The notes beneath the pieces are model-generated. The model was not told the DNA's origin. It worked only from the letters and a program-made list of their open reading frames with translations, and searched no databases. This document shows, piece by piece, positions 1-23,263 of a stretch of 64,000 nucleotides of DNA. This DNA comes from Candidatus Saccharibacteria bacterium QS_5_54_17 (lineage in GTDB: Bacteria; Patescibacteriota; Saccharimonadia; QS-5-54-17): contig PXOU01000007.1 in assembly GCA_003022365.1 (NCBI GenBank), positions 227 through 64,226 of the forward strand. Reading direction: 5' to 3'. Each line of letters starts with the position of its first letter. Position 1 is the stretch's first letter. The translations under genes were made by a program, and so were the position numbers.

Positions 1-2957
1 CTCCAGAGCAGGCGTGGGCCCAATCCGACCAATCATCCGGCTCAGTAGAAGGTGAATGGATCGACAATGCCCATATCAAAATTAAGGGAAACTTATATCT
101 CTACGGAAGTAACAATGAAGAGGATTCAGGGGATCAATTCTATTTTCAAAAATCAGAAGGCGAAAAGTTTAATAAAGAGTTTGAGGATGCAGCACCTTGG
201 GATCGCGACCATCCAGATAATTGCGTGGATTACATTCATGGTGACTCGTTTGGGCAATACCCCCATTTTAATAAGAAGACTACCACCGAAACCGCCACGC
301 TTACCATCAGAGATCACAAAGACGGCGAGGACGTATGTTATACAGAAAAGAAAGACGTTAACCTCGACCCGGAAGATGCCAACCCGGAAGATGCCAATAT
401 TGTGTTTAGACAGTTCGGGGAAGGGGACAAGAAGGAGATTAAGCCGGTTCATAATGACGCTTTTAGCAAGCCGGGTGATATAGATGATTACGATGTCAAG
501 GATACCATCAGTTTGGAAGGTTACAAGTCGTACCAATTTTTGGGTACCTATAGAATTGATAAGGACTACTCTAAACACAACGAAGGGGATGGGGAAAGGT
601 ACGCTAATACCAAGGGAGGGAAAGATTGCAAATCAGAACTCATAAAGCAAAGTAAAGGTGACGACAAAGTAGATGCGACCATCAAGCATTATGACAACTC
701 TTTTGAGTTGACCCCGACATGTGAGAGTAAAGAATTTAACGGTCTACGGGTAGTGAATGAATTTGACAATGTAAAGGCGGGCGAAACCCCAGCATACAAC
801 AAAGAGGACCTGGACGAACCGGGCGTGGATGCTGGCAATGACGATGAAGGCGACGATGAAGGAAGCGATGACAACATCGATTGCGACGCCGGGTTCGGAC
901 TCTCTTGGTTGGTCTGCAACATCATCAGCGCTTTCCGGAATTTCATGGAGTTCGCGACCAATGTATTAGAGTCGCTTTTGAGCGTCAGCCCCCTGGAGAG
1001 AACCAATGATGAAGGTGGCAAAACGTTCATCTACCAAACGTGGAGCAGCGTACGGAATATGGCCAATATATTCCTGATCCCGGTATTCATCTTTTTGATC
1101 TACGCCCAAGCCACCTCTTTCAATATAGACACCTATACCATAAAAAAGATGCTCCCCCGGCTGGTAGCGGCGGTTATATTTATCCAAGCCTCCTTCTTCC
1201 TGGTCGCAATTGCTGTAGACATTACCAACGTCCTGGGGAAAGGCATCGAAGGAGTAGTTCTGGCGCCCATACAAGACTCAGCCCTGCAAGAATCAGTTGC
1301 CCAAGACAGACCAGATCTGAATTTCAGCGGGGAAGGCGAAACGAGCGTAATAGTCGCCGGATCCGCCTTTTTGACGTATTTCGCAGCTACCGGGGGCCTG
1401 GCTACGATCGCGGGCGGGGCGGTCGCGTTCTTCCTGGTCATGCTGCCGGCTATCATCGCCATCATCGCTACTTTCTTGACCTTAATGCTGCGTCTTATAA
1501 TCATCGTGTTGCTGACTGTCCTATCCCCCATCGCCTTCCTTTTGTGGGTACTCCCCAATACGGAAAAATGGTTCAAACAATGGCTGGACATGCTCCTGAA
1601 AGCACTGATGATGTTCCCGTTGATCATGCTGCTGTTGGCTTCCGGTACCCTGGTGGCCGTGATAGCGACCAACTTTGGGGAAGGAGACGCCACAGAGGTT
1701 GAAGACGCTGTGACTGCGTTGATCGGCTTCGTGGCCGTTATGGCGCCCCTGTTCGTAATACCCTTCACCTACAAATTAGCCGGAGGGGCGGTGTCGGTCC
1801 TCGGCGGCACAGTCTCCAATCTCACCAACAAAGCCGCCCGGGGCAAAGACGGCAAGGGTGGTAAAGGTGGCAAGGGCGGCCTAATGGGGGGACTCCAGGA
1901 AAAGAAAGAGCGGCGTGAAACGGAGATGGCCGCCGGTATGAAACCCGACAACTTGCTCGGCAGGGCGGTAATGGGTACCCCCGCCGTAAGAAAAGCGGCC
2001 CAGGCCGGGGCCCGCCCCGGAGTCGGCGTGGGAGGAAAATCCCAAGCCCAGGCGATAGGAAAATTCAAGCAGCAAGTCGGCGAAGCGGACAGAACCCTTG
2101 AGGAGGAAGGCATTAACGACCCCGAAATACAGAATGAAATTGCCCAACATGGTGACTCAATTAGGGGCCGGATAAAGGAACTTGAAGGTAACGGTGAAAC
2201 CGAGAAGGCGGAGAAGTTGAAGGAGGTTAAGCACCATAGCGGCAAAAAAGAAGTGCGGGCCGCCGCCTTGCAGCGGGTAGCCAAGCAAGGGAAGGCGCAG
2301 CAGGCCAGTTTTGATGAAGTCCAGAAAGCGACCGGGGGCCAAGTCGGCAAGGACATAGTCTCCCAGGCAGCCCAAGCGGCCGGCAAAGATGGCGGTCGGC
2401 CGGACCTGAAAGCGTACAATACCGCCAGCAACGACGAAGACAAATGGAAGAATTACAAACAAGAGCTCCGGAGCATGAGCACCGAAAACTGGCAAAAACT
2501 CAAACCCGACGCCTTGGAAGACAAAAACAACAACCCAACCGAATTCGCCCAAGCCGCCAGGCAGCAAGCAGCAGAAGATAAGGAATTCAAACAGATGCTT
2601 GGTAAGATGGCGAGTCAGGAATCAGGAGTGCCGAAGGAAACCCGTGATAAGCTCAGCAGAACAGCGGGGTTGGATTTTGAGAGGGACCCCGACCTCCAAG
2701 CAGGCAACCTGGGCGTCGACGTAGCCTCGGCGGGCGGCACACCGGTAAAGCCCCGGGAGGGGGAGGAAGGCACCGTCCCCACCAGCCCACGGTTCGGGCA
2801 ATCCGGGCAATCGGGAGGACCGCAGGAACCGGGAGGAGCCGGGGAACCGGGACAACCCGGCCCCAACTACAACAACCAGGATCAAAATTCCGGAAACCCG
2901 AATCCCAATGACTCGTACAATCCGAATCCTAATGACCCGTACGATACACTTAGTTAG
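1..2957 (+). CDS. VirB6/TrbL-like polytopic membrane protein of a T4SS-like apparatus. It is 5'-truncated: frame 3 is open from the window start. It has an acidic N-terminal ectodomain, about 8 TM helices and a long K/E/G/Q/P-rich C-terminal tail with PNPND repeats.
   Basis: Frame 3 has no stop from nt 3 to 2957. There is a cluster of about 8 hydrophobic helices (aa ~225-520 of the listed ORF), matching VirB6/TrbL topology. It lies in synteny with the VirB3- and VirB4-like genes downstream. The C-terminus is a low-complexity tail. Confidence 0.55.
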   Translation, partial: PEQAWAQSDQSSGSVEGEWIDNAHIKIKGNLYLYGSNNEEDSGDQFYFQKSEGEKFNKEFEDAAPWDRDHPDNCVDYIHGDSFGQYPHFNKKTTTETATLTIRDHKDGEDVCYTEKKDVNLDPEDANPEDANIVFRQFGEGDKKEIKPVHNDAFSKPGDIDDYDVKDTISLEGYKSYQFLGTYRIDKDYSKHNEGDGERYANTKGGKDCKSELIKQSKGDDKVDATIKHYDNSFELTPTCESKEFNGLRVVNEFDNVKAGETPAYNKEDLDEPGVDAGNDDEGDDEGSDDNIDCDAGFGLSWLVCNIISAFRNFMEFATNVLESLLSVSPLERTNDEGGKTFIYQTWSSVRNMANIFLIPVFIFLIYAQATSFNIDTYTIKKMLPRLVAAVIFIQASFFLVAIAVDITNVLGKGIEGVVLAPIQDSALQESVAQDRPDLNFSGEGETSVIVAGSAFLTYFAATGGLATIAGGAVAFFLVMLPAIIAIIATFLTLMLRLIIIVLLTVLSPIAFLLWVLPNTEKWFKQWLDMLLKALMMFPLIMLLLASGTLVAVIATNFGEGDATEVEDAVTALIGFVAVMAPLFVIPFTYKLAGGAVSVLGGTVSNLTNKAARGKDGKGGKGGKGGLMGGLQEKKERRETEMAAGMKPDNLLGRAVMGTPAVRKAAQAGARPGVGVGGKSQAQAIGKFKQQVGEADRTLEEEGINDPEIQNEIAQHGDSIRGRIKELEGNGETEKAEKLKEVKHHSGKKEVRAAALQRVAKQGKAQQASFDEVQKATGGQVGKDIVSQAAQAAGKDGGRPDLKAYNTASNDEDKWKNYKQELRSMSTENWQKLKPDALEDKNNNPTEFAQAARQQAAEDKEFKQMLGKMASQESGVPKETRDKLSRTAGLDFERDPDLQAGNLGVDVASAGGTPVKPREGEEGTVPTSPRFGQSGQSGGPQEPGGAGEPGQPGPNYNNQDQNSGNPNPNDSYNPNPNDPYDTLS

Positions 2958-3147
2958 TATTAAGGCGTAATGATAAATCGGCCTATACGCCCACCATCTC
3001 AAATAGACAGATGAGAAGAGGTTGGAAGAAAAGTCTGGGTGGGGCGGGAGGGCGTGCTCGAGGAGCAGCTGAAGAGGAATAGGGGATTGGAGTTTGGGGA
3101 AGACGGCACTGGCGACGCTGCCAGCAAGGCCGCCTTCCCCGAAGACT

Positions 3148-3411
3148 CTACGATGATTTTCGTCGCCATTTAAGGCGTACTTCCCAGTACGCCTCAACGA
3201 CGGCATTAATTGCGAACCCCAGCACAAACGCTGCGGCCGACGTGGCCGCAGCGATTAATAACCCGGCAATAAGCCCGGCCTCGATCCACCCCCCTATTAG
3301 ACAAAGGGGGGCGAGCCCCATAGTGACGAAGAAGAAAATTTTAAAACCGAGGCTATCCTCGTTGGACGTTGTTTCGTTTACCACTTTGCGGACAAACGAC
3401 TTCTCGGTCAT
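3148..3411 (-). CDS. Small 2-TM membrane protein (87 aa), possibly pilin/VirB2-like; its orientation is convergent to the cluster.
   Basis: It has two clean hydrophobic helices (FFFVTMGLAPLCLIGGWIEAGLIAGLLIAAATSAAAFVLGFAINAVV). AAAGGGG lies 6 nt upstream of the ATG on the minus strand. The competing plus-strand ORF 3242-3508 is low-complexity. Confidence 0.35.
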   Translation of the reverse strand: MTEKSFVRKVVNETTSNEDSLGFKIFFFVTMGLAPLCLIGGWIEAGLIAGLLIAAATSAAAFVLGFAINAVVEAYWEVRLKWRRKSS

Positions 3412-3584
3412 CCTGTGCCCCTTTCGAGTCTTCTTCCAACCTGGCGAAGCGAAGAAAGCCCTTCGCTACTCATATAATCACATGAAATTTGATATTAGTC
3501 AAGGCTGACTGGGGTATTTTTGCACGTAGAACCCGGGATCACTCGGAATCATTACCAAAGCCCTACAATAAAAACCGGGCGAAA

Positions 3585-4140
3585 TATCATTCCTGAATAT
3601 GTCATTCCTGAAACAAGTTCAGGACAGGCTCTGAATTTATTTCAGGATCTGGTTTCCGGGTTGGTTTCAGCATAAAAATGATTCCGGATCGGAGTCCGGA
3701 ATGACAGAGAGGGTGACGAAAAAGCAATGTCATCCTGAATTTAGTTCAGGATCTATTTCAAAGCTGATTCCGAAACAAGTTCGGAATGACAGAGGGGGGG
3801 GCGGAATGAACTACCACGCCCTTACGGACGTGGTTTCACTTTAATTCAAGCTCCGCTTGGCCGCTGTCTTCCCGGCCCTGGTATTCGATGTAGTTCCGTA
3901 TGGTCTCTTCATCCACGCCGACGGTGGAGATAGCGTACAATCATGCCTCCATGCTACCGCATGGAGGCAAAGACAGCGGCGGCGCCTTCATCCACGCCCT
4001 TACGGACGTGGTTTTCTTATGGCGGATAAAGAGGATTCGCATTTTTTTCCTTACTTCCTGTTCCCTGTCTCCAGTCTCCAGTCTACTGTCTACCACTTAC
4101 TGCTTACTTCTTGCTGCTTGCTTCCTGCTTCCTTTTCCTG
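3585..4140. repeat. Composite hairpin-repeat block R1. It contains the modules gtcattcctgaaacaagttcaggacaggctctgaa, atttcaggatctg, ggattccggatcggagtccggaatgaca and two copies of ccacgcccttacggacgtgg, ending in a CT-rich cttacttcttgctgcttgcttcc module.
   Basis: The same modules recur at 11 or more other intergenic loci in this window. ORFs 3857-4141 and 3900-4154 lie inside the repeat and are probably spurious. Confidence 0.8.
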
Positions 4141-4197
4141 ACCGGCCATTATGACATGAGCTTTATACCCCGCATCTGATCCGCTATACTGGCGGGC

Positions 4198-5148
4198 ATG
4201 GCTACCTATAAAGTTCCCCAGGATGTCGAAGCCGAAGACAAATTACTGGGGCCGCTGACGTTCAAACAGTTCATTTTCATGCTGATCGCCGGCGGCGGGG
4301 GGCTGCTGGCTTGGCTGATGTGGCAGGTGCACCCGTTCCTGGTGGTGTTACCGCTGCCGATCGTGGTGATATTCGGCGGACTGGCCGTCTTCCGCCGGGA
4401 AGACCAGCCCATGGAGCGGTACTTACTGTCCTTTTTTAACTTTCTGTTGCGGCCGCGCCAACGGGTGTGGAACACCGAAGGGTATTACGAACATCTGGTC
4501 CTCACCAAACCCAAAAAACAGGAGGAAACACCCCTCAAACAGGATGTCCACGAAGTCCATGGCCAATTGGAAAAACTGGCCCAGACGGTCGACACGCGGG
4601 GATGGGCCGCCAAACGTCCGGAGCTGACGGTACCGGACGCCAACCCGGCTATCGGCGCCAGCGGCGACGACCGGTTGTTCAGGCCCGACGAGTCCCAGGA
4701 GCCGGCCGAGGTGCACGAGCGCGAAGACATCATGAGCGAGGAAAACCCCGAAGGCATGCAGCTTGACAATCTGCTACACGAACAAACCCGCCAGCGGCGC
4801 GAGCAAGTGATGGAGAACGTCCGCCGGCAAGCACGTGGTCAAACCCCGGCGGAGGGAGAAACCGTGCCCCAGGCGGACGGGCATCATACCCCGGCTGAGG
4901 TTCCTGCCGCCAGCCCGGCCGCGGAAGCTTCGGAATCCCCGCCATCACCACCGGCTGGGCAGACGGGCAACGACCAGGCGACCGACAACACCGACAATCA
5001 GGCGCCCCAGACCCAGGCACCCGAAACCGCCCAGCAATCTGGTATACTGAACGTGTCTGATGAGTTAAGCGTCAGCCAGATCGCCGCCGCGGCCAACCGG
5101 CAATCCGATGATCGCTTGCAAGAGGGTGAGGAGATACAACTGCGATGA
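4198..5148 (+). CDS. VirB3/PrgI-like small T4SS membrane protein with a long disordered C-terminal extension.
   Basis: The N-terminus LLGPLTFKQFIFMLIAGGGGLLAWL plus a second TM helix matches PrgI/TcpE/VirB3-family topology. It sits immediately upstream of the VirB4-like genes. The C-terminus is P/A/Q/E-rich low complexity. Confidence 0.5.
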   Translation: MATYKVPQDVEAEDKLLGPLTFKQFIFMLIAGGGGLLAWLMWQVHPFLVVLPLPIVVIFGGLAVFRREDQPMERYLLSFFNFLLRPRQRVWNTEGYYEHLVLTKPKKQEETPLKQDVHEVHGQLEKLAQTVDTRGWAAKRPELTVPDANPAIGASGDDRLFRPDESQEPAEVHEREDIMSEENPEGMQLDNLLHEQTRQRREQVMENVRRQARGQTPAEGETVPQADGHHTPAEVPAASPAAEASESPPSPPAGQTGNDQATDNTDNQAPQTQAPETAQQSGILNVSDELSVSQIAAAANRQSDDRLQEGEEIQLR

Positions 5149-5274: not shown

Positions 5275-6285
5275 ATGCCGCCCGATGATCAACAACCCGC
5301 CAACCAGGCAGGCCAGCAGTATGTGCCCGGGAACACCGGCGGGCAGGCCTCAGAACAGACCAACACCGCCGGGCAACCGGATCCAAGCCAAGCTGGACAA
5401 AGCCCCGGGCAAGGACAGCAGCAAGGTCAGCAACAACCCCAGCAACAACCAAACGCCCAAGCAACTCAGCAACAACCCCGGCCCCAACCCAACACCCAGC
5501 GGCCCACCCCAGGCAGCCAGCCCAATGCGGGGCAATCAAAAAAATCGAAAGAGAATAAGAAATCGAGGAAAAAGGCTAACAGCACCCAGAAATCACTGCT
5601 GGTTTCCGAGATACGCGATGGCATCGTTATCATGCGGGACAGTTCGCTGCGTTCGGTGGTCATGTGCCAGTCGGTCAACTTCGATCTGATGAGCCCACAA
5701 GAGCGGGAAGGGGTGGAACAGGCCTACCAACAGTTCCTGAATTCGCTTGATTTTACCGTCCAGATATACATCCGCAGCCAGCGCATCAACCTGGATAACT
5801 ACTTGGAAAAACTCCAAAACGCCCGGCAGAACCAGGACAACATTCTGCTGGGGCTTTTGATGGAGGATTACATCGAATACATCAAGTATCTGGTGGAAGC
5901 AGCTAACATCATGGACAAGCAATTCTACGTCATCGTGCCATATTATCCGTCCGGAATTTCCGAGGGTATCGCCAGCGGTGCCCAGAAATTCACCGAACTG
6001 TTCAAGACCAAGAAGAAAGACGTGGTAACCGTCAACGAAAACGAGTTCAATAAACATAAACAGGAGCTGAGCCGGCGGGCCCGTACGGTCGCCAACGGGT
6101 TGAACCGGATCGGCACCCAGGCCGTACCGCTCAACACCCAGGAACTCATCGAGTTGTATTACAATGTGTACAATCCGGTCACCTCCAAACAGGAGAAGCT
6201 GACCGACGTCAATCAACTAGAGTCCCCGATCATCGAAAAAGGCGAGGGGCAAGCCGACCAGGTACTCCCCGGGGAGAACGCATGA
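5275..6285 (+). CDS. Standalone VirB4 N-terminal-domain-like protein (CagE/TrbE/VirB-like fold) with a ~110-aa Q/P-rich disordered N-terminus.
   Basis: The likely start is ATG 5275, 5 nt after GGGGAGG, in the same frame as listed ORF 5227. The C-terminal 220 aa (IRDGIVIMRDSSLRSVVMCQSVNFDLMSPQEREGVEQAYQQFLNSLDFTVQIYIRSQ...) resemble the N-terminal domain of VirB4 proteins. There is no Walker motif. Confidence 0.45.
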   Translation: MPPDDQQPANQAGQQYVPGNTGGQASEQTNTAGQPDPSQAGQSPGQGQQQGQQQPQQQPNAQATQQQPRPQPNTQRPTPGSQPNAGQSKKSKENKKSRKKANSTQKSLLVSEIRDGIVIMRDSSLRSVVMCQSVNFDLMSPQEREGVEQAYQQFLNSLDFTVQIYIRSQRINLDNYLEKLQNARQNQDNILLGLLMEDYIEYIKYLVEAANIMDKQFYVIVPYYPSGISEGIASGAQKFTELFKTKKKDVVTVNENEFNKHKQELSRRARTVANGLNRIGTQAVPLNTQELIELYYNVYNPVTSKQEKLTDVNQLESPIIEKGEGQADQVLPGENA

Positions 6286-6433
6286 GCGGACACCCGCCAA
6301 ATCCAAGCCGGGCCACCCCAAACCAATCGCTGCCCGTGGTTGCCCGCCACGCAAGGGAGGAACCGTCGATGCCAGCTTGGGGTTTAGTCATCAAAGCCTT
6401 GCCTGCTAACCTGAAAACCGGAGCATTTTAGTA

Positions 6434-8356
6434 ATGGGTTTGTTAAGCAAGCTGAATGTCTTCAAAAGCAAACAGGACCCGGTCGGGCTGGCCGAAGCGC
6501 AAAAACAGCGGGAACAGCAGGAAGTCGAGCGGGAGTTCCGGCAAGGCATTACCGGGCTGCGGGATTTCATCTCCCCCTCCAGCCTGGAGTTCGAGTCTTC
6601 CTATTTGCGCATCGGCACCCGGATGGCCCGGACATTATACGTCTACGGCTACCCCCGGCAACTGTTTACCGGCTGGTTATCACCTATCATCAACCTGGAC
6701 GAAGCATTGGACATCAGCATGTTCATCTACCCGGTAGAAAGCCGGGTGGTGCTGGAGAATCTGCGCAAGAAAGTGTCCCAGCTGGAGGCCGACATCCAGA
6801 TCAACCAGGAAAAAGGGCGGGTGCGCGATCCCCAAACCGAGGCGGCCATCCAGGACGCCGAGCAGTTACGGAACCGGTTGCAGGTCGGGGAGGATCGGTT
6901 CTTCCGGTTCGGCCTCTACATCACCATGTACGCCGACAGCATGGAAGAAATGACCTACATCCAACGGAAGATCGAGGGAGTCTTCGGCCAGCAGCTGGTA
7001 TATACCAAAGTGGCCACCGTACAGATGGAACAGGCCTTCAACTCGACCGTGCCGCAAGTCACCGACCAACTCCAGATTATGCGGAACTTCAGTACCGGCG
7101 CCCTGTCGACGACCTTCCCGTTTACTTCGGCCGATCTATCCCAGGAAGAGGGCATTCTGTACGGCATAAATATGCACAACAACGGCCTGGCCATTTTTGA
7201 TCGGTTTAGCCAGGAAAACGCCAATATGGTGGTCTTCGCCAAATCGGGTGCCGGTAAATCGTTCACCGTCAAGCTGGAAGCGTTGCGGAGTCTGATGATG
7301 GGCCGGCAGGTTATCATCATCGATCCCGAAAACGAGTACGAGCGGCTCAGCGACGCGGTCGGCGGCAGTTATATCTACTTGAGCTTAAATTCGGATACCT
7401 ACGTCAACCCGTTCGATCTTCCCACGGTTACGGATTCGGAAGAGGCCGACAATGCCTTGCGGGCCAACCTGATTACCCTGCACGGCATGCTGCGGTTGAT
7501 GATGGGCAGCACCAAACAGGAGGATGATGGCAGCATCAGCTCCGGCATCACTGCCGAAGAAGAGGCGGATCTGGATATGGCGCTCATTAACACCTACGCC
7601 GCCATGGGCATTACCAACGACCCGCATACCCACACCGCCCAACCGCCCACCATTAACGATCTCTACGACACGTTGGTCAATATGGCCGGTACCGGCCCTA
7701 ATATGGCCCAGCGGTTGCGCAAATACACCGAAGGTACCTTTTCGGGTATATTTTCCAACCAATCCAACGTATCGCTGGATAACGATTTCGTGGTCTTCAA
7801 CATCCGCGACCTGGAGGACGAACTCCGGCCGGTGGCGATGTTTATCGTACTCAACTACATATGGAACCGGGTCAAATCCGACCAGACCGAGCGGTATCTG
7901 GTCGTGGACGAGGCCTGGCAGTTGATGAAATACGAGGATTCGGCCAATTTCCTCTTTTCGGTGGCCAAACGGGCCCGAAAATATTCGCTGGGACTGACCA
8001 CTATCTCCCAGGACGTGGAGGACTTTTTGACTTCCCGGCTGGGACGGGCGGTGGTGTCTAACTCCAGCATGCAGCTGTTGCTTAAGCAGGCGCCGTCGGC
8101 GGCCGATCTGATCGCCGAAACCTTCAAACTCACCAGCGAGGAGAAGAAACGGCTGACCCAGTTCCCGGTCGGGCAGGGGCTTTTCTTCGCCGGCTCCAAC
8201 CACATCCATCTCCGGATCGAGGCCAGCCCCACCGAAGCCCAGCTGGTCACCACCGACCCGCAAGAGCTGGCGGCCATGGAAAAAATCAATCAAGGGGTTG
8301 CCGGTGGGGAATCGGCCGAAACCGACAATACCGAAGCCGATACCGAGGCCGGGTAG
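6434..8356 (+). CDS. virB4: VirB4-family T4SS ATPase of the Gram-positive TrsE/PrgJ/TcpF/ConE type (COG3451).
   Basis: Walker A is VFAKSGAGKSF and Walker B is RYLVVDEAWQLM. The N-terminal region (SPSSLEFESSYLRIGTRMARTLYVYGYPRQL...WLSPIINLD) is typical of TrsE-like VirB4. It lies in synteny with the VirB3- and VirB6-like genes. Confidence 0.85.
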   Translation: MGLLSKLNVFKSKQDPVGLAEAQKQREQQEVEREFRQGITGLRDFISPSSLEFESSYLRIGTRMARTLYVYGYPRQLFTGWLSPIINLDEALDISMFIYPVESRVVLENLRKKVSQLEADIQINQEKGRVRDPQTEAAIQDAEQLRNRLQVGEDRFFRFGLYITMYADSMEEMTYIQRKIEGVFGQQLVYTKVATVQMEQAFNSTVPQVTDQLQIMRNFSTGALSTTFPFTSADLSQEEGILYGINMHNNGLAIFDRFSQENANMVVFAKSGAGKSFTVKLEALRSLMMGRQVIIIDPENEYERLSDAVGGSYIYLSLNSDTYVNPFDLPTVTDSEEADNALRANLITLHGMLRLMMGSTKQEDDGSISSGITAEEEADLDMALINTYAAMGITNDPHTHTAQPPTINDLYDTLVNMAGTGPNMAQRLRKYTEGTFSGIFSNQSNVSLDNDFVVFNIRDLEDELRPVAMFIVLNYIWNRVKSDQTERYLVVDEAWQLMKYEDSANFLFSVAKRARKYSLGLTTISQDVEDFLTSRLGRAVVSNSSMQLLLKQAPSAADLIAETFKLTSEEKKRLTQFPVGQGLFFAGSNHIHLRIEASPTEAQLVTTDPQELAAMEKINQGVAGGESAETDNTEADTEAG

Positions 8357-8725
8357 TCAGCAGACAGTAGACGGTAGACGGCAGACAGGGAGTGAGAAGC
8401 AACAGGCTCTGAAGATGTCATTCCTGAAACAGGTTCAGGACAGGCTCCGAACTTGTTTCAGGATCTATTGCAGAATCTGTTTCAGGATCATGTCTGGTTA
8501 AAGGATTTCGGCTCGGGGGCCGGAATGACAAATAGGTTTTGCATTCTCCCCTTACTTCTTGCTTCTTGCTGCTTGCTTCTTCTTCCCTGTTCCCTGTCTA
8601 CTTCTGTTTTTTGCTTACTTCTTACTTCCTGCTGCTTACTCTCCGTTCCCTGTATGCTGTCTGCTGTCTACCGCCTACTGTTACCTGCTTGCTTCCTATT
8701 CCCGCTGCCGGGAGACTGTTGTGAG
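8357..8725. repeat. Composite repeat block R2 with a MITE-like layout. The left arm is cagcagacagtagacggtagacggcagacagggagtgagaagcaacagg. Internal hairpin modules follow. The right arm is a long CT-rich microsatellite-like module (cttgcttcttgctgcttgcttc...ctgtctgctgtctaccgcctactg) that is roughly the inverted complement of the left arm.
   Basis: Direct reading of the sequence. ORFs 8453-8755 and 8539-8724 inside it are low-complexity and probably spurious. Confidence 0.8.
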
Positions 8726-8815
8726 TGTATAGGCCGCCCTTTCGTGATATGCTAGGGTAAAGGTAAGGATAACAGGTATGATCCCCCCGTCCTGGATGTG
8801 GCAGGAGTATATAAG

Positions 8816-10018
8816 ATGAAACAGATGGTTAAAGTCAAAAAACATCTCCAAAAACATTTCCGCCCGGGCTCCGGCACCGGTAAGTATCGATCGGCTGGGG
8901 TAATGCTGGGAACGGGCGTGTTGGTATTCGCCTCGGTGGTGACACTGCCCGGAGGTGGCCTGACGGCGGCCACCCAGAAGGAGCCCTCCCGAATCGCACT
9001 GGGGTCCTCACACATCGACGCCGAAACCGACATTACCCAGAACAAGAGCGGCAACGGATGTTTTGCCACCACCGCCATCACCATCCGTAACAGCGGAAAA
9101 TTAGCCGATGCCCTGGAGCGCTACGTCGAAAATCACCAACCCGACTCGCCGTTTGCCAACCTGGGAGAGGCTTTGGTCAGCGGAGCCAAGCAGGAGAACG
9201 TCAACCCCATGCTGTTGGTGGGCATCGCCCAAAAAGAAAGCATGCTGGGGACGGCCTGGGGGAGCAATTCGTCCGACAGCTATAACGCCTTCGGGCGCCG
9301 AGCCAAAGAATCCCAGCCCAGTATAGACGGATGGTACCGGTACGACTCCTGGGAGCAAAGTTTGGAGGGAGGAACCGACTTTGATGACATCCCCAATTAC
9401 CTCCGCCGGGTATTCATCGAAAACGGGGCAGTGTCAATCGAGGAATTCGTCAACCAGTACGCCCCTCCCGAGCAGAACGATACCCAGCTTTACCGTCATC
9501 AACTCCGGCAATCGATCGAGGAAATGATCGAACTGGCCGGCGACAGCATCCGCTGCGGCAGCGGCCAAAACTGGATCTGGCCAACCGGGGACGGGGGAGC
9601 CGTGCTCAGCTGCTTTGGTGAACGGGGCGCCCCGCAACCGATCGGCCCCAACAAGCATGCCGGGATCGACATTACCCCGGACGCCGACCCTTACGTATTA
9701 GCCGCCAATAGCGGCGAGGTGATCACCGCCCGCCACACCGGAGCAGCCGGGCTGATCGTCGAAATACAGCACAATGAAAACCTGATCACCCGGTATCATC
9801 ACAACAGCAGCTTGCTGGTGAACGTCGGGGAGACCGTATCGGCCGGGCAACGGATCGCCTACGTGGGCACCAGCGGCAACGCCACCCACCCGCATGTGCA
9901 TTTTGAGATCTCCCGCAACCAGAAAGCAGTCAATCCCGCCCGGGAAATGGATATACCCGGGGCAGTTTCCACCAGCGGCGCTAATTGCGGCGGCAACCAA
10001 GAAAAGGGGTCGTCATGA
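8816..10018 (+). CDS. Secreted or membrane-anchored bifunctional peptidoglycan hydrolase: an N-terminal lysozyme-like (glucosaminidase/SLT-like) domain plus a C-terminal M23 (LytM) endopeptidase. It is a VirB1/PrgK-like accessory.
   Basis: ATG 8816 follows AGGAG by 9 nt. A TM/signal region is present. The motif NPMLLVGIAQKESMLG (E in a lysozyme-like context) is shared with ORFs 32299-35304 and 53628-54344. The M23 motifs are HAGIDI...HHNSS...GNATHPHVHFE. Confidence 0.75.
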   Translation: MKQMVKVKKHLQKHFRPGSGTGKYRSAGVMLGTGVLVFASVVTLPGGGLTAATQKEPSRIALGSSHIDAETDITQNKSGNGCFATTAITIRNSGKLADALERYVENHQPDSPFANLGEALVSGAKQENVNPMLLVGIAQKESMLGTAWGSNSSDSYNAFGRRAKESQPSIDGWYRYDSWEQSLEGGTDFDDIPNYLRRVFIENGAVSIEEFVNQYAPPEQNDTQLYRHQLRQSIEEMIELAGDSIRCGSGQNWIWPTGDGGAVLSCFGERGAPQPIGPNKHAGIDITPDADPYVLAANSGEVITARHTGAAGLIVEIQHNENLITRYHHNSSLLVNVGETVSAGQRIAYVGTSGNATHPHVHFEISRNQKAVNPAREMDIPGAVSTSGANCGGNQEKGSS

Positions 10019-10959
10019 AGAACCGGATATTGGTCGGGGCGATTGCGGGAGGCTTGATACTGGCAACGGCCCTCGTCGTCGCGGTCCAGCTGAATTCCGG
10101 GTCGGAACCCTTTTTCCAGAAAGCCGCCCATGATCACGTCAAACACATGCGGTTCGTGGAACCCAATGTGCTCCAGTACGTCACCCGGGACAACGAGGTT
10201 AAGCGACTCGGAGCGGAAACCTTCCGGACCGAAACCCAAACCCAGGTGAAAGGGTTTCACGTCCGGCTCAGCCCCTCAGGCGAATACGTCAGCCACGCCA
10301 AGGACGGCAAAATACACATCACTACGGTATCCTCGGAGCGGACCAACCACCGGTTGCACGGTTCGCTGCATCGCTGGCAGGACGAGTCATCGCTTATGTA
10401 TATCAAAAACCAATCAAAGCCCTCCGTGTTCCTGGAAGAAGGACAGCTTACCCGGTACCATCTTGAGACTACCAACAAGGACTATGTCATGGACATAGCG
10501 GGCACCGTTATCCATCCGTTGAATTCGTATTCGGGACTGATACTCACCGCGGCCGGCCAGGAGGTAGCCGAGAACGCCCGTTTAACGCTCTACAGTGGCC
10601 GGAAAGAGGCGGAGGTGGCGGTCTCCGATCAACCCATCCAAAGCACGGCCAGCGCTCATGGACTGATGGCTTTCCAGACCCGCGGCGATCCCACCCTGAA
10701 ACTCATCAACCGGCACGGCCGGGTAAAACCGACCGCCATCCAACCGCGGGAAAGTTTGTACCGACCCGTGGATGGGGATACCATCGCCGCCGAGATAACC
10801 AGCGCCGATCAACGGAAAATCGAACTATACGACGTCTCCCAATCGGTGGTGGAAAGACAGCTGCCTCTGGGTGAAGTAGGCGAAGTCATCGACGTGGCGG
10901 CCACGGACAGCTACGTCGCCGTCGCCACCACCAACGGGATATACGTAGGAGCCTTATAG
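10015..10959 (+). CDS. N-terminally TM-anchored extracytoplasmic protein of unknown function (possible T4SS structural component).
   Basis: ATG 10015 follows AAAAGGGG. It has a single N-terminal TM helix, sits in the operon with the hydrolase genes, and its start overlaps the stop of the upstream gene. Confidence 0.5.
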   Translation: MKNRILVGAIAGGLILATALVVAVQLNSGSEPFFQKAAHDHVKHMRFVEPNVLQYVTRDNEVKRLGAETFRTETQTQVKGFHVRLSPSGEYVSHAKDGKIHITTVSSERTNHRLHGSLHRWQDESSLMYIKNQSKPSVFLEEGQLTRYHLETTNKDYVMDIAGTVIHPLNSYSGLILTAAGQEVAENARLTLYSGRKEAEVAVSDQPIQSTASAHGLMAFQTRGDPTLKLINRHGRVKPTAIQPRESLYRPVDGDTIAAEITSADQRKIELYDVSQSVVERQLPLGEVGEVIDVAATDSYVAVATTNGIYVGAL

Positions 10960-10960
10960 T

Positions 10961-11578
10961 ATGATGCGATCCAAAAAACTACTCATCATCGCCGCTGTTA
11001 TCATCTTTCTACTGGCTGCCGTCGCGGCGGTGTATTGGCTGGAATTCCGGAACCAGGAATTCCAGCTGGAGGATACTTCCCCCGGCCAGCAAGTCCGGAT
11101 AGACCGGCTGACTCCCACCATTTCTTTTGACTATAATCAACCCCTCTTTATCCCCGAGGATTTCCGGGTGGTGAGCGATCCGCTCATGGACGCGGAAATA
11201 TACACCCGCGGCGACACGCTGTATCTGGTACCCAACCACGCGCTCCTCCAGCGAGCGGAATACACCCTGACCATACCCCGGATCGAAAGCCAATCCGGCC
11301 AAAGCATAGGTGAACACACCCTTACCTTCCGCACGGACCGGCGACAGTCGTCCCGGCTTGGGTTTATCCGTGACCTGCCGGTGCATAATCCCGGCTACAG
11401 CATCACCTATCTGGAAGATCAGGATGCGTTCGTGGTCCGCATTACCCAAGTGCCGGTAGAAGAAAAGCGGCTACGGGCGCGTAACTATCTGGAGAAGAAC
11501 GGCATTAAACCCGGGCAAAACGACGTTAAATTCGAAATATTGCGCAGCGTGGAAGGGCGGGGCGCTTCAGCGGGATAA
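10961..11578 (+). CDS. Bitopic membrane protein (205 aa) with VirB8-like topology: short cytoplasmic N-terminus, one TM helix, about 170-aa periplasmic domain.
   Basis: Topology only. It is translationally coupled (ATG 2 nt after the upstream stop). There is no sequence-level family match I can assert. Confidence 0.4.
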   Translation: MMRSKKLLIIAAVIIFLLAAVAAVYWLEFRNQEFQLEDTSPGQQVRIDRLTPTISFDYNQPLFIPEDFRVVSDPLMDAEIYTRGDTLYLVPNHALLQRAEYTLTIPRIESQSGQSIGEHTLTFRTDRRQSSRLGFIRDLPVHNPGYSITYLEDQDAFVVRITQVPVEEKRLRARNYLEKNGIKPGQNDVKFEILRSVEGRGASAG

Positions 11579-11584
11579 TCGGCC

Positions 11585-11845
11585 GATGGGGGCAGTTGAC
11601 AGGAAGCAAGGAGCAAGTGGCAAGTGGAAAATGCAAATCCTCTTTGTCATTCCGAACTTGTTTCGGAATCGGCTCTGAAACAGATCCTGAAATAAATTCA
11701 GGATGACAATGGGGGAAGATCCTGAAACAAGCCTGCCTGCCGGCAGGCAGGTTCAGGATGACATTTTCACTACCCCTCTCTGTCATTCCGGCCCCCGAGC
11801 CGGAATCTATTAAACCGAGGTGTTCAATAAGTTCTGTCAAACTAA
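11585..11845. repeat. Composite repeat block R3: purine-rich arm gacaggaagcaaggagcaagtggcaagtgg; hairpin modules including gtcatcctgaacctgcctgccggcaggcaggttcaggatgaca and tgtcattccggcccccgagccggaat; ending with the ggtgttcaataagttctgtca module.
   Basis: Direct sequence comparison with R1, R2, R4-R12. ORF 11526-11840 is probably spurious. Confidence 0.8.
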
Positions 11846-18355: not shown

Positions 18356-19390
18356 TTACAACTCAATGGTAGCACAACCGGTTTCTAGTTGCTGTGGCGG
18401 ATGGGTAGCCGTGATGATGGTTTGGGTGTCGTGTAGGTGTTCCAGCAAGGCCGCTTGGCGCCGCTCATCCAATTCACTGAACACGTCATCCAAAAGCAAC
18501 AGCGGCTCGGACCGGGCATACTCGCGGATATAGGAGAGCTCCCCCAGCATGAGCGCCACCGTGGCCGTCCGCACTTCGCCCCGGGATCCGACTTCGGCCA
18601 GCGGCCGGGAATTATGCGTTACGTTTATGTCGTCCCGATGCGGACCATGGCCGGTGGTGCCATATCTAAAATCGGGTTGAATGGAGGCGGCCAGCTGCCG
18701 TAATAACTCATCGGGATAGTTTTTATTGCTGGTTTTGGAGGCGTAGGTGAATTGGATCTGGTTTTGGTCACCGGTGATATCCCGGTATATAGCCGGCACG
18801 GATTGATTGAAAAACGCCACTAAATCTTCCCGGCATCGGCGGATGTAGGCGGCTTGCTCCACCAGTAATACGTCCCACCCAAAGACCTGGTCTTTACTCG
18901 CCTCTCCCCGGCGTAAAAGACTATTCCGCTGTTTTAATATCCGCCGGAACCGTAAGAGGGAGGTGAGGTATTGGCTGTCGCTAAAGCAGAGAATCCGGTC
19001 CATAAGGTGCCGGCGATAGGATGGGGAGCCGTATATCAACTGTAAGCCGCCCGGTTCGAATAAAACGACCGGTAAATAGCCGATAAAATCCCGGGGCTTG
19101 ACTTGCTCACCCTGGCAGTATAACTGTTTCTGCTTCTGCTTCCAGGTGACCGCCAATTCATTCTTATCCGACGTCCAGGCGCTGACACGGAACCATTGCT
19201 CCCCGTCGCGGGCCATACTGGCCGGCGAACCGCGAAAACTCCGACTCATTCCCAACAGGTAGATAGCTTCCAGTATGTTGGTTTTGCCGCTCCCGTTGGG
19301 ACCGGTGATAACCGTCTTGCCGGCATCAAAACTAAACGCACGGTCTGGGTAGGAACGGAAATTGGTTAGTTGAAGCGTAGAAAGCGGCAT
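18356..19390 (-). CDS. recF: DNA replication and repair protein RecF.
   Basis: Walker A GPNGSGKTNILEAIY at the N-terminus. The Walker B/D-loop region LLLDDVFSELD at the C-terminus. Synteny with dnaN. Confidence 0.9.
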   Translation of the reverse strand: MPLSTLQLTNFRSYPDRAFSFDAGKTVITGPNGSGKTNILEAIYLLGMSRSFRGSPASMARDGEQWFRVSAWTSDKNELAVTWKQKQKQLYCQGEQVKPRDFIGYLPVVLFEPGGLQLIYGSPSYRRHLMDRILCFSDSQYLTSLLRFRRILKQRNSLLRRGEASKDQVFGWDVLLVEQAAYIRRCREDLVAFFNQSVPAIYRDITGDQNQIQFTYASKTSNKNYPDELLRQLAASIQPDFRYGTTGHGPHRDDINVTHNSRPLAEVGSRGEVRTATVALMLGELSYIREYARSEPLLLLDDVFSELDERRQAALLEHLHDTQTIITATHPPQQLETGCATIEL

Positions 19391-19589
19391 ACGGTTAACG
19401 GGGAGTAGTTTTGCTTATTTTGTTGTGTAATCTGTTAGGTAATATCTCGATCAATAAAAGCGTCATTTTTATCATGGGTAGCATCATTCAGCAGCCTACA
19501 GGACTCCTTTATGTGTCGTATATGTGGATATATCCGGGCTGGCAGTATTTTCGCCCGGCCTAAAACCCTTCAATCGCGCGAAAAAACGG

Positions 19590-20675
19590 TTAGGAGCGGA
19601 GCGGCATGACGATGTGTAAGTAGGAATCATCGTCCACCGGCTGGATCAGGCACGGATTGACTTTGCCGGTTAAACTGATGTCAACTTGGTCGGTATCGAT
19701 CACGCTCAAGGCGTCGGCGATATATTTACCGTTGAGGGCTACTTCCATATCTTCACCGGAAACCTCGCCGGAAATCTCCGAGCTGTTTTCACCGACTTGG
19801 CTGGCGACCGATTCCATATACAGACTGTCACGGGCTATTTTGACTGTCACGCTTCCGGTGGTTTCCCGTGCGAACAAGGTGGCCGCTTTGGTAATATCCT
19901 GGAGCTCGCCGGTGTTCACCCGGGCGGTGGTGGGAACCTCCTGGGGTATAAGTTGCCGGTAATCAGGGAATTCGCCGTCGATGATCCGGGAAACCAACTC
20001 CGTTTCATTGAACCCGAAGCTGATTTGATTGTCATCGATTTTCACTGTGACATCTTCACCCTCACCTAAAAGCCGCAACACTTCCGACACGGTGCGGGCG
20101 GGCACCACCACGTTACACTCAGCATCGGTCTCCATGATTTGCTTTTCCGCCAACCGGTAGCTGTCGGTGGCCACCGCGTACAGCATGCCGTCTCTGGTAT
20201 GCAGATAGACACCCGTTAAAACCGGCCGGCTATCATCCCCGGAAGTGACATGCACCACCTGGCTTAAGGCGTTTTTAAGCGTTTTGGCTGCCACTTGAAA
20301 TTCTACGTTACCCGAAACGGAGGGAATCGAAGGAAACTCTTCGGCGCTGATACCGTTGATTTTAGAGGAAAACCCGTTACTGTCTATGTGCACCGTGTCT
20401 TTCTCGCAAGTCAAGGAAACGTTTCCGGCCGGAAGATTGTGCACGTATTCGGAAAACAACTTGGCCGGAATAGTAACAGCTCCATCTTCTTCTACTTTAC
20501 CGCCGATCCAGTGAGTTATGCCCATTTCAAGATTAGTAGCTGAGAGCTGGATCCGGTTGTCTTTGGTTTGGAGTAATACATTAGCCAATACCGGCAAGGT
20601 ATTCCGATTGCCGATGATGCGGGAAACGGTGCTAAGTCCGTGGTTAAGATTTTCCTGGGTGATACTGAGCTTCAT
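19590..20675 (-). CDS. dnaN: DNA polymerase III beta sliding clamp DnaN.
   Basis: The N-terminus MKLSITQENLNHGLSTVSRIIGNRNTLPVLANVLL is typical of DnaN. It is about 360 aa in three domains, in synteny between dnaA and recF. Confidence 0.9.
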   Translation of the reverse strand: MKLSITQENLNHGLSTVSRIIGNRNTLPVLANVLLQTKDNRIQLSATNLEMGITHWIGGKVEEDGAVTIPAKLFSEYVHNLPAGNVSLTCEKDTVHIDSNGFSSKINGISAEEFPSIPSVSGNVEFQVAAKTLKNALSQVVHVTSGDDSRPVLTGVYLHTRDGMLYAVATDSYRLAEKQIMETDAECNVVVPARTVSEVLRLLGEGEDVTVKIDDNQISFGFNETELVSRIIDGEFPDYRQLIPQEVPTTARVNTGELQDITKAATLFARETTGSVTVKIARDSLYMESVASQVGENSSEISGEVSGEDMEVALNGKYIADALSVIDTDQVDISLTGKVNPCLIQPVDDDSYLHIVMPLRS

Positions 20676-21017
20676 AATTCATAATCCTTTTATTTACATG
20701 GTTATTATTGCGGTCGTGGAATCTGTGGATAATCGTAATATATTCCTTTTCCAAGCAAAAACAGAACTATTTTCGAAGTGGAGAAATAGCGGAAAAACTT
20801 TGGATAGAGGTGGCGTGTGTTTGCCACAACAGCGACACGACTACCGGAGTTATAAGCGGTGAAATACATCCACCACCTATACACAACCGTTCCCGCCTTT
20901 TCCACATTATTTCCATACCTTTTCCCGAAGGTTTTTAATGTTTGAGGAGCCATAAAACCGGTGTCTCCCGTCACCTGAACACTACCATGAAACAGTTTTG
21001 GGAAAATGAGCCGAGTT
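20676..21017. promoter_or_regulatory. dnaA-dnaN intergenic region with a perfect DnaA box (TGTGGATAA at 20724-20732), weaker box-like sites and AT-rich stretches. It is a probable second origin module or DUE.
   Basis: The consensus TTATCCACA occurs on the complementary strand. The region is AT-rich between the two replication genes. Confidence 0.5.
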
Positions 21018-22391: not shown

Positions 22392-22731
22392 TGGTAACCT
22401 CCCTCACGCGCTTTGCTTAACTCTCTTTTTAGGCGTGTACCTATAAACTATATTAACCCAGGCGCTTGCATTTCCACAAATCCCGCGCATAAATCACCCC
22501 AAAACGGCTCAAGTTTTCCACAAGCAGCATTTAACACCGGCAAGCTTGTGGATAAATGCTTGTTAGATGTGTATAAAAACGATATTATGCAACTAGAAAG
22601 CAGCCTATATATACCCTGTTTGAGCACCGGTAATCCGTGTCAAGTTTGCCGGGAAGAATTAGGCAAGCGGCTAGAGCGGGTGTGTTACGATGCACGGGTA
22701 GCCAAAACAGGTTAGCATAAGGAGTTCCAGC
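22392..22731. promoter_or_regulatory. oriC-type region with DnaA boxes (TTTCCACAA at 22471-22479, TTTTCCACA at 22514-22522, and a perfect TGTGGATAA at 22547-22555) plus the rpmH and dnaA promoters.
   Basis: DnaA-box consensus matches on both strands in the divergent rpmH/dnaA intergenic region. Confidence 0.6.
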
Positions 22732-22869
22732 TATGTCCAAACGGACCTATCAACCCAAGAAACGGCAACGGGCGCGGGAGCATGGGTTCTTCAAGCGCAT
22801 GAGCAGCCAAGCGGGGCGGAATGTCCTCAAACGCCGCCGGCAAAAGGGACGGAAGCGCCTCAGCCATTA
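22732..22869 (+). CDS. rpmH: 50S ribosomal protein L34.
   Basis: Translates to [45 protein letters not shown]. It is below the 60-aa ORF-track cutoff. An AGGAG SD precedes it. Confidence 0.9.
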
Positions 22870-22903
22870 AGGCTTTCATGAGGTGATCCCTTAGGCTTTT
22901 TAT

Positions 22904-23248
22904 ATGCTCAAGCAGCCCAACCGGCTCCGCCGACAAAAAGATTTCGCCCGGGTATTCAAGCACGGGGACACCGTCCATATGCCGGCCTTTACCGTCAAAT
23001 ACCACGCCAACCACCACCCTTCGCGTACCCGGGTGGCGGTGGTGATCAGCAGCAAAGTAGCCAAACGGGCGGTTATCCGCAATCGGACCCGCCGCCGGTT
23101 CTACGGACAGGTCCAGCTTTTGTGGCCGCGGATACGGCCCGGCATGGACGTCGTCATCCTGCTTCGGCGCCAAGCCACTGATCTGCGCGGCGCCCAACTC
23201 GCCGAGCAGTTGCGGAGTTGTTTTCACAAGGCAGGCATTCTACACTAA
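22904..23248 (+). CDS. rnpA: Ribonuclease P protein component.
   Basis: A basic 114-aa protein (RLRRQKDFARVFKHG...AKRAVIRNRTRRR) in the canonical rpmH-rnpA arrangement. Confidence 0.85.
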   Translation: MLKQPNRLRRQKDFARVFKHGDTVHMPAFTVKYHANHHPSRTRVAVVISSKVAKRAVIRNRTRRRFYGQVQLLWPRIRPGMDVVILLRRQATDLRGAQLAEQLRSCFHKAGILH

Positions 23249-23263
23249 CGGGAGAGGTAACCC

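What the first reader, a model, noticed from the sequence alone, without database searches (positions are those of the whole stretch)
5275..8356. Duplicated VirB4 N-domain: a standalone VirB4-N-like ORF with a long Q/P-rich tail precedes a complete VirB4
ORF 6434-8356 already contains a full TrsE-like N-terminal region plus the Walker A/B ATPase. Yet the upstream ORF 5275-6285 carries a domain that also looks like a VirB4 N-terminal (CagE/TrbE/VirB) fold. It is preceded by about 110 residues of Q/P/N-rich low complexity (QQGQQQPQQQPNAQATQQQPRPQP). The two ORFs are separated by 148 bp with no frameshift that could fuse them, since the downstream ORF has its own plausible start. It is either a novel split or accessory subunit or an unrelated protein that mimics the fold.
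Basis: inference. Interest (0 to 1): 0.55.

Follow-up and report, generated by a model that had tools for sequence, protein, structure and literature searches.

The report
Split VirB4 ATPase (TrsD/TrsE-type) in Saccharibacteria
The two genes are not a duplicated domain in front of a complete VirB4 but the two halves of one type IV secretion ATPase, encoded as separate neighbouring genes. This arrangement is already described for staphylococcal plasmids (TrsD/TrsE) and for Saccharibacteria, so it is ordinary.

Summary
The sequence facts hold. There is a 336-aa ORF (5275-6285) with a ~100-aa Q/P-rich N-terminal tail, then a 148-bp gap, then a 640-aa Walker A/B ATPase ORF (6434-8356). The interpretation "duplicated N-domain before a complete VirB4" is wrong.

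Full-length VirB4 profiles place the upstream ORF on positions ~11-184 and the downstream ORF on ~185-734. A single-chain 797-aa VirB4 from Ca. Colwellbacteria aligns to the upstream ORF over residues 5-211 (38% identity). It aligns to the downstream ORF over residues 210-797 (46% identity). The two ORFs show no similarity to each other (BLASTP, hhalign).

So this is one VirB4 split inside its N-terminal domain, as in TrsD/TrsE of pSK41. The split is conserved: 80 of 80 Saccharibacteria species genomes carry the pair, and 45 of them have a TAATG stop/start overlap. An independent assembly reproduces the 148-bp spacer.

The upstream protein carries the precomputed Pfam family PF26593 (TraC-like). 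A 2025 paper already reports TrsD homologues next to virB4 as the commonest T4SS component of Patescibacteria and essential in Southlakia epibionticum.

The cluster is the chromosomal T4SS near dnaA. Already known; low interest.

The parts
225..2957 (+). VirB6/TrbL-like polytopic membrane protein (910 aa) with a low-complexity C-terminal tail; context gene of the T4SS cluster
   Evidence: Weak Pfam TrbL hit, E 0.0028. The orthologous position in relatives carries PF19590 TrbL_3.
4198..5148 (+). PrgI family (VirB3-like) membrane protein, 316 aa. The PrgI domain is aa 5-91, followed by a long low-complexity C-terminal extension.
   Evidence: Pfam PF12666, E 6.4e-15. A PrgI gene lies directly upstream of the TrsD-like gene in relatives.
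5275..6285 (+). TrsD-like / TraC-like (PF26593) protein, 336 aa: the detached N-proximal subdomain (N1) of VirB4
   Evidence: NCBIfam: aa 129-306 match VirB4 profile positions 11-184. 38% identity to residues 5-211 of the single-chain 797-aa VirB4 P0356. Precomputed PF26593. GGAGG RBS before the ATG.
5275..5574 (+). Q/P/N/G-rich, presumably disordered N-terminal tail (aa 1-100) ending in a lysine-rich patch KKSKENKKSRKK
   Evidence: Composition is 74% QPNGST. In homologues the tail varies from ~11 to ~146 aa and its sequence is not conserved.
5575..6183 (+). Folded N1 domain (aa 101-303), from ANSTQKSLLVSEIRDG to YNVYNPVT
   Evidence: AF2 model with mean pLDDT 76.5. The only significant Foldseek PDB hits are TrwK/VirB4 chains. 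30 invariant columns among 53 homologues.
6286..6433 (.). 148-bp intergenic spacer between the two halves
   Evidence: Conserved without indels in an independent assembly of a 95%-identical relative (L089). Most species have a 1-nt TAATG overlap here instead.
6434..8356 (+). TrsE-like short VirB4 (640 aa): N2 subdomain plus ATPase domain
   Evidence: NF045971 scores 360 bits over profile positions 185-734. 46% identity to residues 210-797 of P0356. 70% identity from residue 1 to the 657-aa orthologue in L001.
6563..7135 (+). N2 subdomain (aa 44-234), the distal half of the VirB4 N-terminal domain
   Evidence: Weak PF03135 CagE_TrbE_VirB hit at aa 73-209. AF2 model (pLDDT 62.5) whose significant PDB hits are all TrwK/VirB4.
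7136..8251 (+). VirB4 C-terminal ATPase domain (aa 235-606), with Walker A at 7241-7264 and Walker B at 7898-7918
   Evidence: phmmer E 1.1e-52 to 4AG5, the VirB4 C-terminal domain of T. pseudethanolicus. PF19044 P-loop_TraG, E 2.3e-24. Motif coordinates.

Best explanation
ORF 5275-6285 and ORF 6434-8356 together encode one VirB4-type T4SS ATPase that is split inside its N-terminal domain. The upstream protein is TrsD-like (Pfam TraC-like). It carries the first ~200 residues of the VirB4 N-terminal domain (N1) behind a variable disordered Q/P-rich tail. The downstream protein is TrsE-like. It carries the second half of the N-terminal domain (N2) and the Walker A/B motor domain. Shown: the two ORFs are collinear and complementary on full-length VirB4s, the split is conserved, and the T4SS gene context is present. 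Inferred: the N1 protein docks non-covalently on N2 and rebuilds the complete N-terminal domain. In the R388 structure that domain is wrapped by VirB3 and mediates VirB4 dimerisation. The rebuilt domain would couple the ATPase to the PrgI/VirB3 and VirB6 membrane platform encoded just upstream. Gene order PrgI, N1, N2-ATPase mirrors the domain order of natural PrgI-VirB4 fusion proteins. In most relatives the two halves are translationally coupled through a TAATG overlap, which suggests equimolar production. In this genome a 148-bp spacer with its own start replaces the overlap.
For: Profile coordinates are complementary: upstream aa 129-306 fall on positions 11-184 and downstream aa 40-593 on positions 185-734 of full-length VirB4 models. 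The single-chain 797-aa VirB4 of Ca. Colwellbacteria (P0356, three MAGs) aligns to the upstream ORF at residues 5-211 and to the downstream ORF at 210-797, with no gap or overlap. The 942-aa PrgI-VirB4 fusion of Vescimonas aligns to the upstream ORF at residues 124-301 and to the downstream ORF at 337-925. The prototype pSK41 TrsD (227 aa) and TrsE (672 aa) show the same profile coverage. A Pontibacillus plasmid has the same split. For both pieces, TrwK/VirB4 is the only significant PDB fold match. In 80 of 80 Saccharibacteria species genomes a short VirB4 (median ~638 aa) follows directly on the same strand, and 45 of these have a 1-nt TAATG overlap. Gene order TrbL_3, PrgI, TraC-like, VirB4 is conserved. 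Literature: TrsD has remote homology to the N-terminal portion of VirB4, is the most abundant T4SS component in Patescibacteria, is mostly adjacent to virB4, and is essential in S. epibionticum (PMC12102498). The VirB4 NTD (residues 15-400) binds VirB3 and forms the dimer interface (PMC9259494).
Against: Physical association of the two proteins is inferred, not shown. No complex prediction could be run. Foldseek gives no target residue ranges, so the fold hits alone do not say which part of TrwK each piece matches. The N2 model has low confidence (pLDDT 62.5). The upstream ORF falls far below the curated cut-off of NCBIfam TrsD/TraD (22 vs 200 bits), so its link to staphylococcal TrsD is remote homology only. 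The paper notes that TrsD homologues in Gracilibacteria are not associated with virB4, which leaves room for a more independent role.
Confidence: 0.9

Rival explanations
1. Duplication: the upstream ORF is an extra copy of the VirB4 N-terminal domain placed before an already complete VirB4.
For: Both pieces have TrwK/VirB4 as their only significant PDB fold match. Their predicted secondary-structure elements come in the same order, beta-beta-beta-alpha-beta-alpha-alpha-beta-alpha-beta-alpha.
Against: BLASTP finds no similarity between the two ORFs. hhalign of the two family profiles gives probability 0.1%. Both ORFs map to different, consecutive parts of full-length VirB4 profiles and single-chain proteins. 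The downstream ORF has only ~235 aa before the ATPase domain, against 400 in TrwK (PMC9259494).
Confidence: 0.03
2. Artefact or pseudogene: a sequencing or assembly frameshift, or a recent inactivating mutation, has broken a single virB4 gene.
For: The two ORFs are in different frames and are separated by a non-coding gap, unlike the abutting genes of most relatives.
Against: An independent assembly (L089) has the same stop, the same 148-bp spacer without indels and the same ATG. 80 of 80 species keep two ORFs. At least 7819 stand-alone homologues were found, and 2164 cluster representatives. Both ends match the native ends of orthologues. The domain sequence is strongly conserved.
Confidence: 0.01
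3. Independent accessory or regulatory subunit: the TrsD-like protein descends from the VirB4 N-terminus but now acts as a separate adaptor. It might gate assembly or recruit substrates through its disordered tail, rather than simply completing the ATPase's N-terminal domain.
For: The tail is lineage-variable, 11-146 aa. Translational coupling is lost in this genome and in about 10 of 80 others. [quoted passage not shown]
Against: The closely related fused form (38-46% identity) shows that the same domain works as a covalent part of VirB4. Gene adjacency is near-universal and the TAATG coupling is frequent. The tail is not conserved in sequence and is nearly absent in many homologues.
Confidence: 0.08

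Closest known systems
TrsD + TrsE of staphylococcal conjugative plasmids pSK41/pGO1 (MPF-FATA class; NCBIfam NF041427 TrsD/TraD family)
   Same: The same three-gene order: a small membrane protein (TrsC/PrgI-like), a ~230-aa TrsD, then a ~670-aa ATPase. Profile coverage is the same: TrsE starts at position ~183 of the CD1110 VirB4 model. A cell-wall hydrolase gene lies downstream in both.
   Different: Only remote sequence similarity to TrsD: 20% identity over 79 aa, and 22 bits against a cut-off of 200. The window protein has a ~100-aa Q/P-rich tail. The system is chromosomal near oriC, in an epibiotic CPR bacterium, and is not on a conjugative plasmid.
Patescibacteria/Saccharibacteria chromosomal T4SS (Quinonero-Coronel et al. 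2025, PMC12102498; Wang et al. 2023 Tn-seq in Southlakia epibionticum)
   Same: The same clade and gene set: VirB6, PrgI, TrsD homologue, VirB4, peptidoglycan hydrolases. The cluster lies near dnaA. The TrsD homologue sits next to virB4.
   Different: Nothing substantive; the window is one more instance. In the passages retrieved by my searches, the paper calls TrsD a protein of unassigned function and does not state that the partner VirB4 lacks the corresponding region. The complementarity shown here makes that explicit.
Single-chain VirB4 (TrwK of R388; CD1110 family; 797-aa Ca. Colwellbacteria protein P0356) and VirB3-VirB4 fusions (Vescimonas 942-aa 'PrgI family protein')
   Same: The same domains in the same order, N1, N2, ATPase, with PrgI/VirB3 in front.
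   Different: Here the chain is broken between N1 and N2, right after the YNP-x-T motif, and PrgI is also a separate gene.
Pfam PF26593 'TraC-like'
   Same: The identical protein P0001 and all 120 listed homologues carry this precomputed family assignment.
   Different: The local Pfam copy returned no PF26593 hit, so membership rests on the precomputed annotation.

Membership tests
VirB4 family ATPase (TIGR00929 / NF045971 CD1110 family) | C-terminal Walker A/B ATPase domain homologous to solved VirB4 C-terminal domains | tested here: met
   Downstream ORF aa 235-606 against 4AG5, E 1.1e-52. PF19044, E 2.3e-24. Walker A at aa 270-277 and Walker B at aa 489-495.
VirB4 family ATPase (TIGR00929 / NF045971 CD1110 family) | Complete N-terminal domain (~400 aa in TrwK) in the same polypeptide as the ATPase | tested here: not met
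   The downstream ORF covers only profile positions 185-734 of 752. Positions 11-184 are on the upstream ORF. Only the two ORFs together give full coverage.
VirB4 family ATPase (TIGR00929 / NF045971 CD1110 family) | Score above the curated NCBIfam cut-off | tested here: met
   NF045971 gives 360.2 bits against a cut-off of 325 for the downstream ORF. TIGR00929 gives 109.5 bits against 643, which is not met.
NCBIfam NF041427 TrsD/TraD family | Score above the curated cut-off (200 bits) | tested here: not met
   22 bits, E 1.1e-4, aa 111-237 on profile positions 6-142 of 201. pSK41 TrsD itself scores 227.6 bits. This is a remote homologue, not a member of that subfamily.
TrsD/TrsE-type split VirB4 (architecture) | A stand-alone protein homologous to the first ~200 residues of VirB4, encoded directly upstream of a VirB4 that lacks them, on the same strand | tested here: met
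   Searches show complementarity. One search shows adjacency in 80 of 80 genomes. Searches show the prototype has the same layout.
Pfam PF26593 TraC-like | Match to the family HMM | tested here: inconclusive
   PF26593.2 is precomputed for the identical protein P0001 and for all listed homologues. hmmscan against the local Pfam copy did not return it, presumably because the model is absent there.
Monoderm (MPF-FATA-like) T4SS locus | Co-located VirB3/PrgI, VirB6/TrbL and cell-wall hydrolase genes | tested here: met
   PrgI E 6.4e-15; weak TrbL hit; Peptidase_M23/glucosaminidase and SLT/M23 genes downstream. The same order is seen in relatives, with T4SS pilin genes nearby.
Monoderm (MPF-FATA-like) T4SS locus | The two halves physically assemble into a functional ATPase | not testable with these tools
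   No multimer prediction or experiment was available.

The most novel reading that the evidence does not exclude
The break between N1 and N2 may not be neutral. It may fall at the boundary of two ancient tandem copies of one alpha/beta fold within the VirB4 N-terminal domain, since both pieces show the same order of secondary-structure elements. Releasing N1 as a separate subunit with a variable disordered tail could then let Saccharibacteria regulate how the ATPase docks on PrgI/VirB3 during epibiotic attachment.
Probability: 0.12. Interest if true: 0.45.

Novelty: already known. Interest (0 to 1): 0.15.

Why it matters
It matters little as a discovery. TrsD-type proteins beside VirB4 are catalogued in Pfam and NCBIfam and described across Patescibacteria. 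The useful point is a clarification. The literature says TrsD has no assigned function. The complementarity shown here, including a 797-aa fused relative that both ORFs tile end to end, indicates that TrsD-like proteins are simply the missing N-terminal subdomain of a split VirB4. This bears on annotation, because 'complete' and 'short' VirB4 should not be confused. It also bears on structural modelling of the Saccharibacteria T4SS that is essential for epibiotic growth.

Tried and rejected
- Direct BLASTP between the two ORFs found nothing.
- hhalign between their family profiles gave probability 0.1%. This rejects duplication at the sequence level.
- phmmer and hmmsearch of the upstream ORF and its family profile against PDB sequences returned only chance hits, and TrwK was not reached by sequence.
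- The local Pfam scan of the upstream ORF gave only a sub-threshold TraC_F_IV hit.
- The Rfam gathering scan of the window found no families.
- A composite palindrome pattern, GTCATTCCGR-N9-CCGGAATGAC, had no matches.
- The frameshift/assembly-error idea was rejected using an independent assembly and 80 species genomes.
Full report
**Observation.** The window holds, on the + strand, a PrgI-family gene (4198-5148), an ORF at 5275-6285 and an ORF at 6434-8356.
- The upstream ORF can be read from a GTG at 5227 (352 aa). The ATG at 5275 is preceded by GGAGG at a 5-nt spacing, and the identical database protein P0001 is 336 aa.
- Its first 100 residues are 74% Q/P/N/G/S/T and end in a lysine-rich patch.
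- The downstream ORF is 640 aa, with Walker A KSGAGKSF (aa 270-277) and Walker B LVVDEAW (aa 489-495).

**What the two ORFs are.**
- NCBIfam full-length VirB4 models place the two ORFs on complementary coordinates. Upstream aa 129-306 fall on positions 11-117 (CD1110) and 18-184 (TIGR00929). Downstream aa 40-593 fall on positions 185-734 of 752 (CD1110, 360 bits, above the 325-bit cut-off).
- The upstream ORF also weakly hits the TrsD/TraD family, with 22 bits against a cut-off of 200.
- The downstream C-terminal part (aa 235-606) matches the solved VirB4 C-terminal domain 4AG5 at E 1.1e-52. That leaves only ~235 residues before the ATPase domain. TrwK has a 400-residue N-terminal domain (PMC9259494).
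- The two ORFs are not similar to each other. BLASTP finds nothing, and hhalign of the two family profiles gives probability 0.1%.

**Rosetta-stone proteins.** An exhaustive search of 1.84 billion cluster representatives found 2164 relatives of the upstream domain. Of the best 150, 149 are stand-alone proteins of 177-478 aa. One, P0356, is 797 aa with the match at residues 7-213.
- P0356 comes from three Ca. Colwellbacteria MAGs.
- It aligns to the upstream ORF (aa 101-303) over its residues 5-211 at 38% identity.
- It aligns to the downstream ORF (aa 22-621) over residues 210-797 at 46% identity.
- There is no gap and no overlap between the two alignments.

A 942-aa 'PrgI family protein' on a Vescimonas plasmid tiles in the same way: upstream on residues 124-301 and downstream on 337-925, with a PrgI region in front. 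It covers CD1110 positions 11-732 in one stretch. The two window ORFs are therefore the two pieces of one VirB4, broken inside the N-terminal domain just after the YNP-x-T motif.

**The same split elsewhere.**
- In pSK41 the order is TrsC (135 aa), TrsD (227 aa) and TrsE (672 aa). TrsE starts at CD1110 position 183, and TrsD is the defining member of NF041427.
- A Pontibacillus megaplasmid has 116-aa, 274-aa and 621-aa genes with the same coverage.
- So 'TrsE-like' is an accurate label for the downstream ORF, but TrsE is itself the short form.

**Conservation and artefact check.**
- At least 7819 homologues of the upstream domain exist as stand-alone proteins of ~230-375 aa. They are mostly from Saccharimonadales, and all those listed carry the precomputed family PF26593 (TraC-like).
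- At least 581 species genomes of GTDB encode a relative, and the best 80 are named as Saccharibacteria/Saccharimonadales or other candidate-phyla bacteria.
- In 80 of those 80, a short VirB4 (median ~638 aa) follows directly on the same strand. In 45 of them the genes overlap by one base (TAATG), the classic translational-coupling arrangement. About ten genomes, like this window, have spacers of 91-486 bp.
- An independent assembly of a 95%-identical relative has the same stop codon, the same 148-bp spacer without indels and the same ATG.
- The downstream protein aligns from its first residue to the 657-aa orthologue of L001 at 70% identity.
- A frameshift, assembly error or recent pseudogene is excluded.

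**Structure.**
- AF2 on a 53-sequence alignment gives a mixed alpha/beta fold for the upstream domain (mean pLDDT 76.5). The 13 best Foldseek PDB hits are all TrwK/VirB4 chains of the R388 T4SS (probability 0.97-1.00, E ~1e-3, TM 0.35-0.46), and nothing else is significant.
- The first 240 residues of the downstream ORF model less well (pLDDT 62.5). They too hit only TrwK/VirB4 (14 chains, E 3e-5 to 4e-4).
- Foldseek output gives no target ranges. The assignment of N1 and N2 to the two halves of the N-terminal domain therefore rests on the sequence evidence above.
- The two models have the same order of secondary-structure elements. That is inference only.

**The tail.** Among 120 homologues the region before the conserved (N)STQ-x-x-L-x-I-x-E-I-R-D-G start of the domain ranges from ~11 to ~146 residues. 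It is compositionally biased (Q/P/N/T/A) and not conserved in sequence. It behaves as a variable disordered extension, not a conserved module. PrgI here also has a long low-complexity C-terminal extension, since only aa 5-91 match the family model. Both tails sit at the junction that is covalent in PrgI-VirB4 fusions.

**Mechanism.**
- Shown: the two ORFs are complementary, the pairing is conserved, and the genes sit in T4SS context (a VirB6-like gene at 225-2957, PrgI, and M23/glucosaminidase and SLT/M23 hydrolases downstream).
- From the R388 structure: VirB3 wraps the VirB4 N-terminal domain, and that domain alone forms the VirB4 dimer interface (PMC9259494).
- Inferred: the TrsD-like protein binds the N2 region of the ATPase and rebuilds the N-terminal domain that couples the motor to PrgI/VirB3 at the membrane.

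**Comparison with what is known.** Quinonero-Coronel et al. 2025 (PMC12102498) report the following.
- It was the most abundant T4SS component in Patescibacteria (2272 homologues, 1664 next to virB4).
- It is essential in Ca. Southlakia epibionticum.
- It has no assigned function.
- These T4SS clusters often lie near dnaA.

The window fits this description. recF (18356-19390), dnaN (19590-20675) and dnaA (21018-22391) are on the minus strand, and yidC is at 23264-24217. The database twin of the upstream protein is from 'Candidatus Saccharibacteria bacterium QS_5_54_17'. The finding is thus an instance of a described arrangement. The only increment is the explicit demonstration that the partner VirB4 lacks exactly the part that TrsD supplies.

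**Verdict.** The duplication reading is refuted and the split reading is supported, but it is not novel. Novelty: already known. Interest: 0.15.

Noticed in passing
window 3606, 3733, 8422, 8445, 8469, 11685, 17738, 17850, 24737, 24908, 32108, 37613, 37761, 47412, 50074, 50187, 53358, 53502: A palindromic 19-mer, TCCTGAAAYARRTTCAGGA (up to 3 mismatches), occurs at about 18 sites, against 0 expected in shuffles. By comparison with the ORF lists, all sites fall in gaps between the longer ORFs. It looks like a dispersed REP-like hairpin element of this small genome. No Rfam family matches in the window.
   Followed up: partly
window 3590-4150, 8360-8740, 11590-11830: Three long non-coding gaps inside the T4SS cluster share composite repeat modules. 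For example, 3593-3650 and 8409-8466 are 91% identical, and 3725-3797 is 90% complementary to 11639-11711. They also share C/T-rich CTTACTTCTTGCTGCTTGC tracts. The gap 2958-4197 is 1.24 kb, which is unusual for a reduced genome.
   Followed up: partly
window 8798-11578: A three-gene block (406-aa M23/glucosaminidase, then 324-aa and 205-aa proteins without family hits) lies between virB4 and the 1068-aa gene. It is absent from the otherwise collinear cluster of a 77%-identical relative (L088). It is bracketed by the inverted repeat modules at ~8486-8575 and ~11600-11825. This suggests an insertion or recombination mediated by those repeats.
   Followed up: partly
window 18356-24217: recF, dnaN and dnaA on the minus strand, and yidC on the plus strand, lie about 10 kb from virB4. 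The T4SS cluster therefore sits next to the presumed replication origin, as reported for Patescibacteria (PMC12102498).
   Followed up: yes
P0356 (Ca. Colwellbacteria, 797 aa; not in the window): This is a fused, single-chain VirB4 closely related to both window ORFs. It is the only long protein among the 150 best representatives of the TrsD-like family. Split and fused states therefore coexist within Patescibacteria.
   Followed up: yes
window 5575-6183 versus 6563-7135: The AF2 models of the two N-terminal subdomains (N1 and N2) show the same order of strands and helices, and both hit only TrwK. They have no sequence-profile similarity. This may reflect an ancient tandem duplication inside the VirB4 N-terminal domain.
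   Followed up: partly
window 6434-8356 (aa 68-207): There is a weak NCBIfam hit to the C-terminal end (positions 333-474 of 477) of the actinobacterial SCO6880 family. It scores 19.6 bits, below the cut-off, and 24.5 bits for the Pontibacillus homologue. It hints that Actinobacteria may split VirB4 at a different point, after N2.
   Followed up: no
window 3814-3836 and 3992-4014: An exact 23-nt direct repeat, CCACGCCCTTACGGACGTGGTTT, occurs twice 178 bp apart in the long gap upstream of the PrgI gene. The repeat is itself a short hairpin followed by TTT.
   Followed up: no
window 225-2957 and 4198-5148: Other T4SS components here also carry long low-complexity tails: the VirB6-like C-terminus (GQSGQSGGPQEPGG...NPNPNDSYNPNPND) and the ~225-aa PrgI C-terminal extension. 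Disordered extensions therefore look like a cluster-wide feature, not one special to the TrsD-like protein.
   Followed up: no
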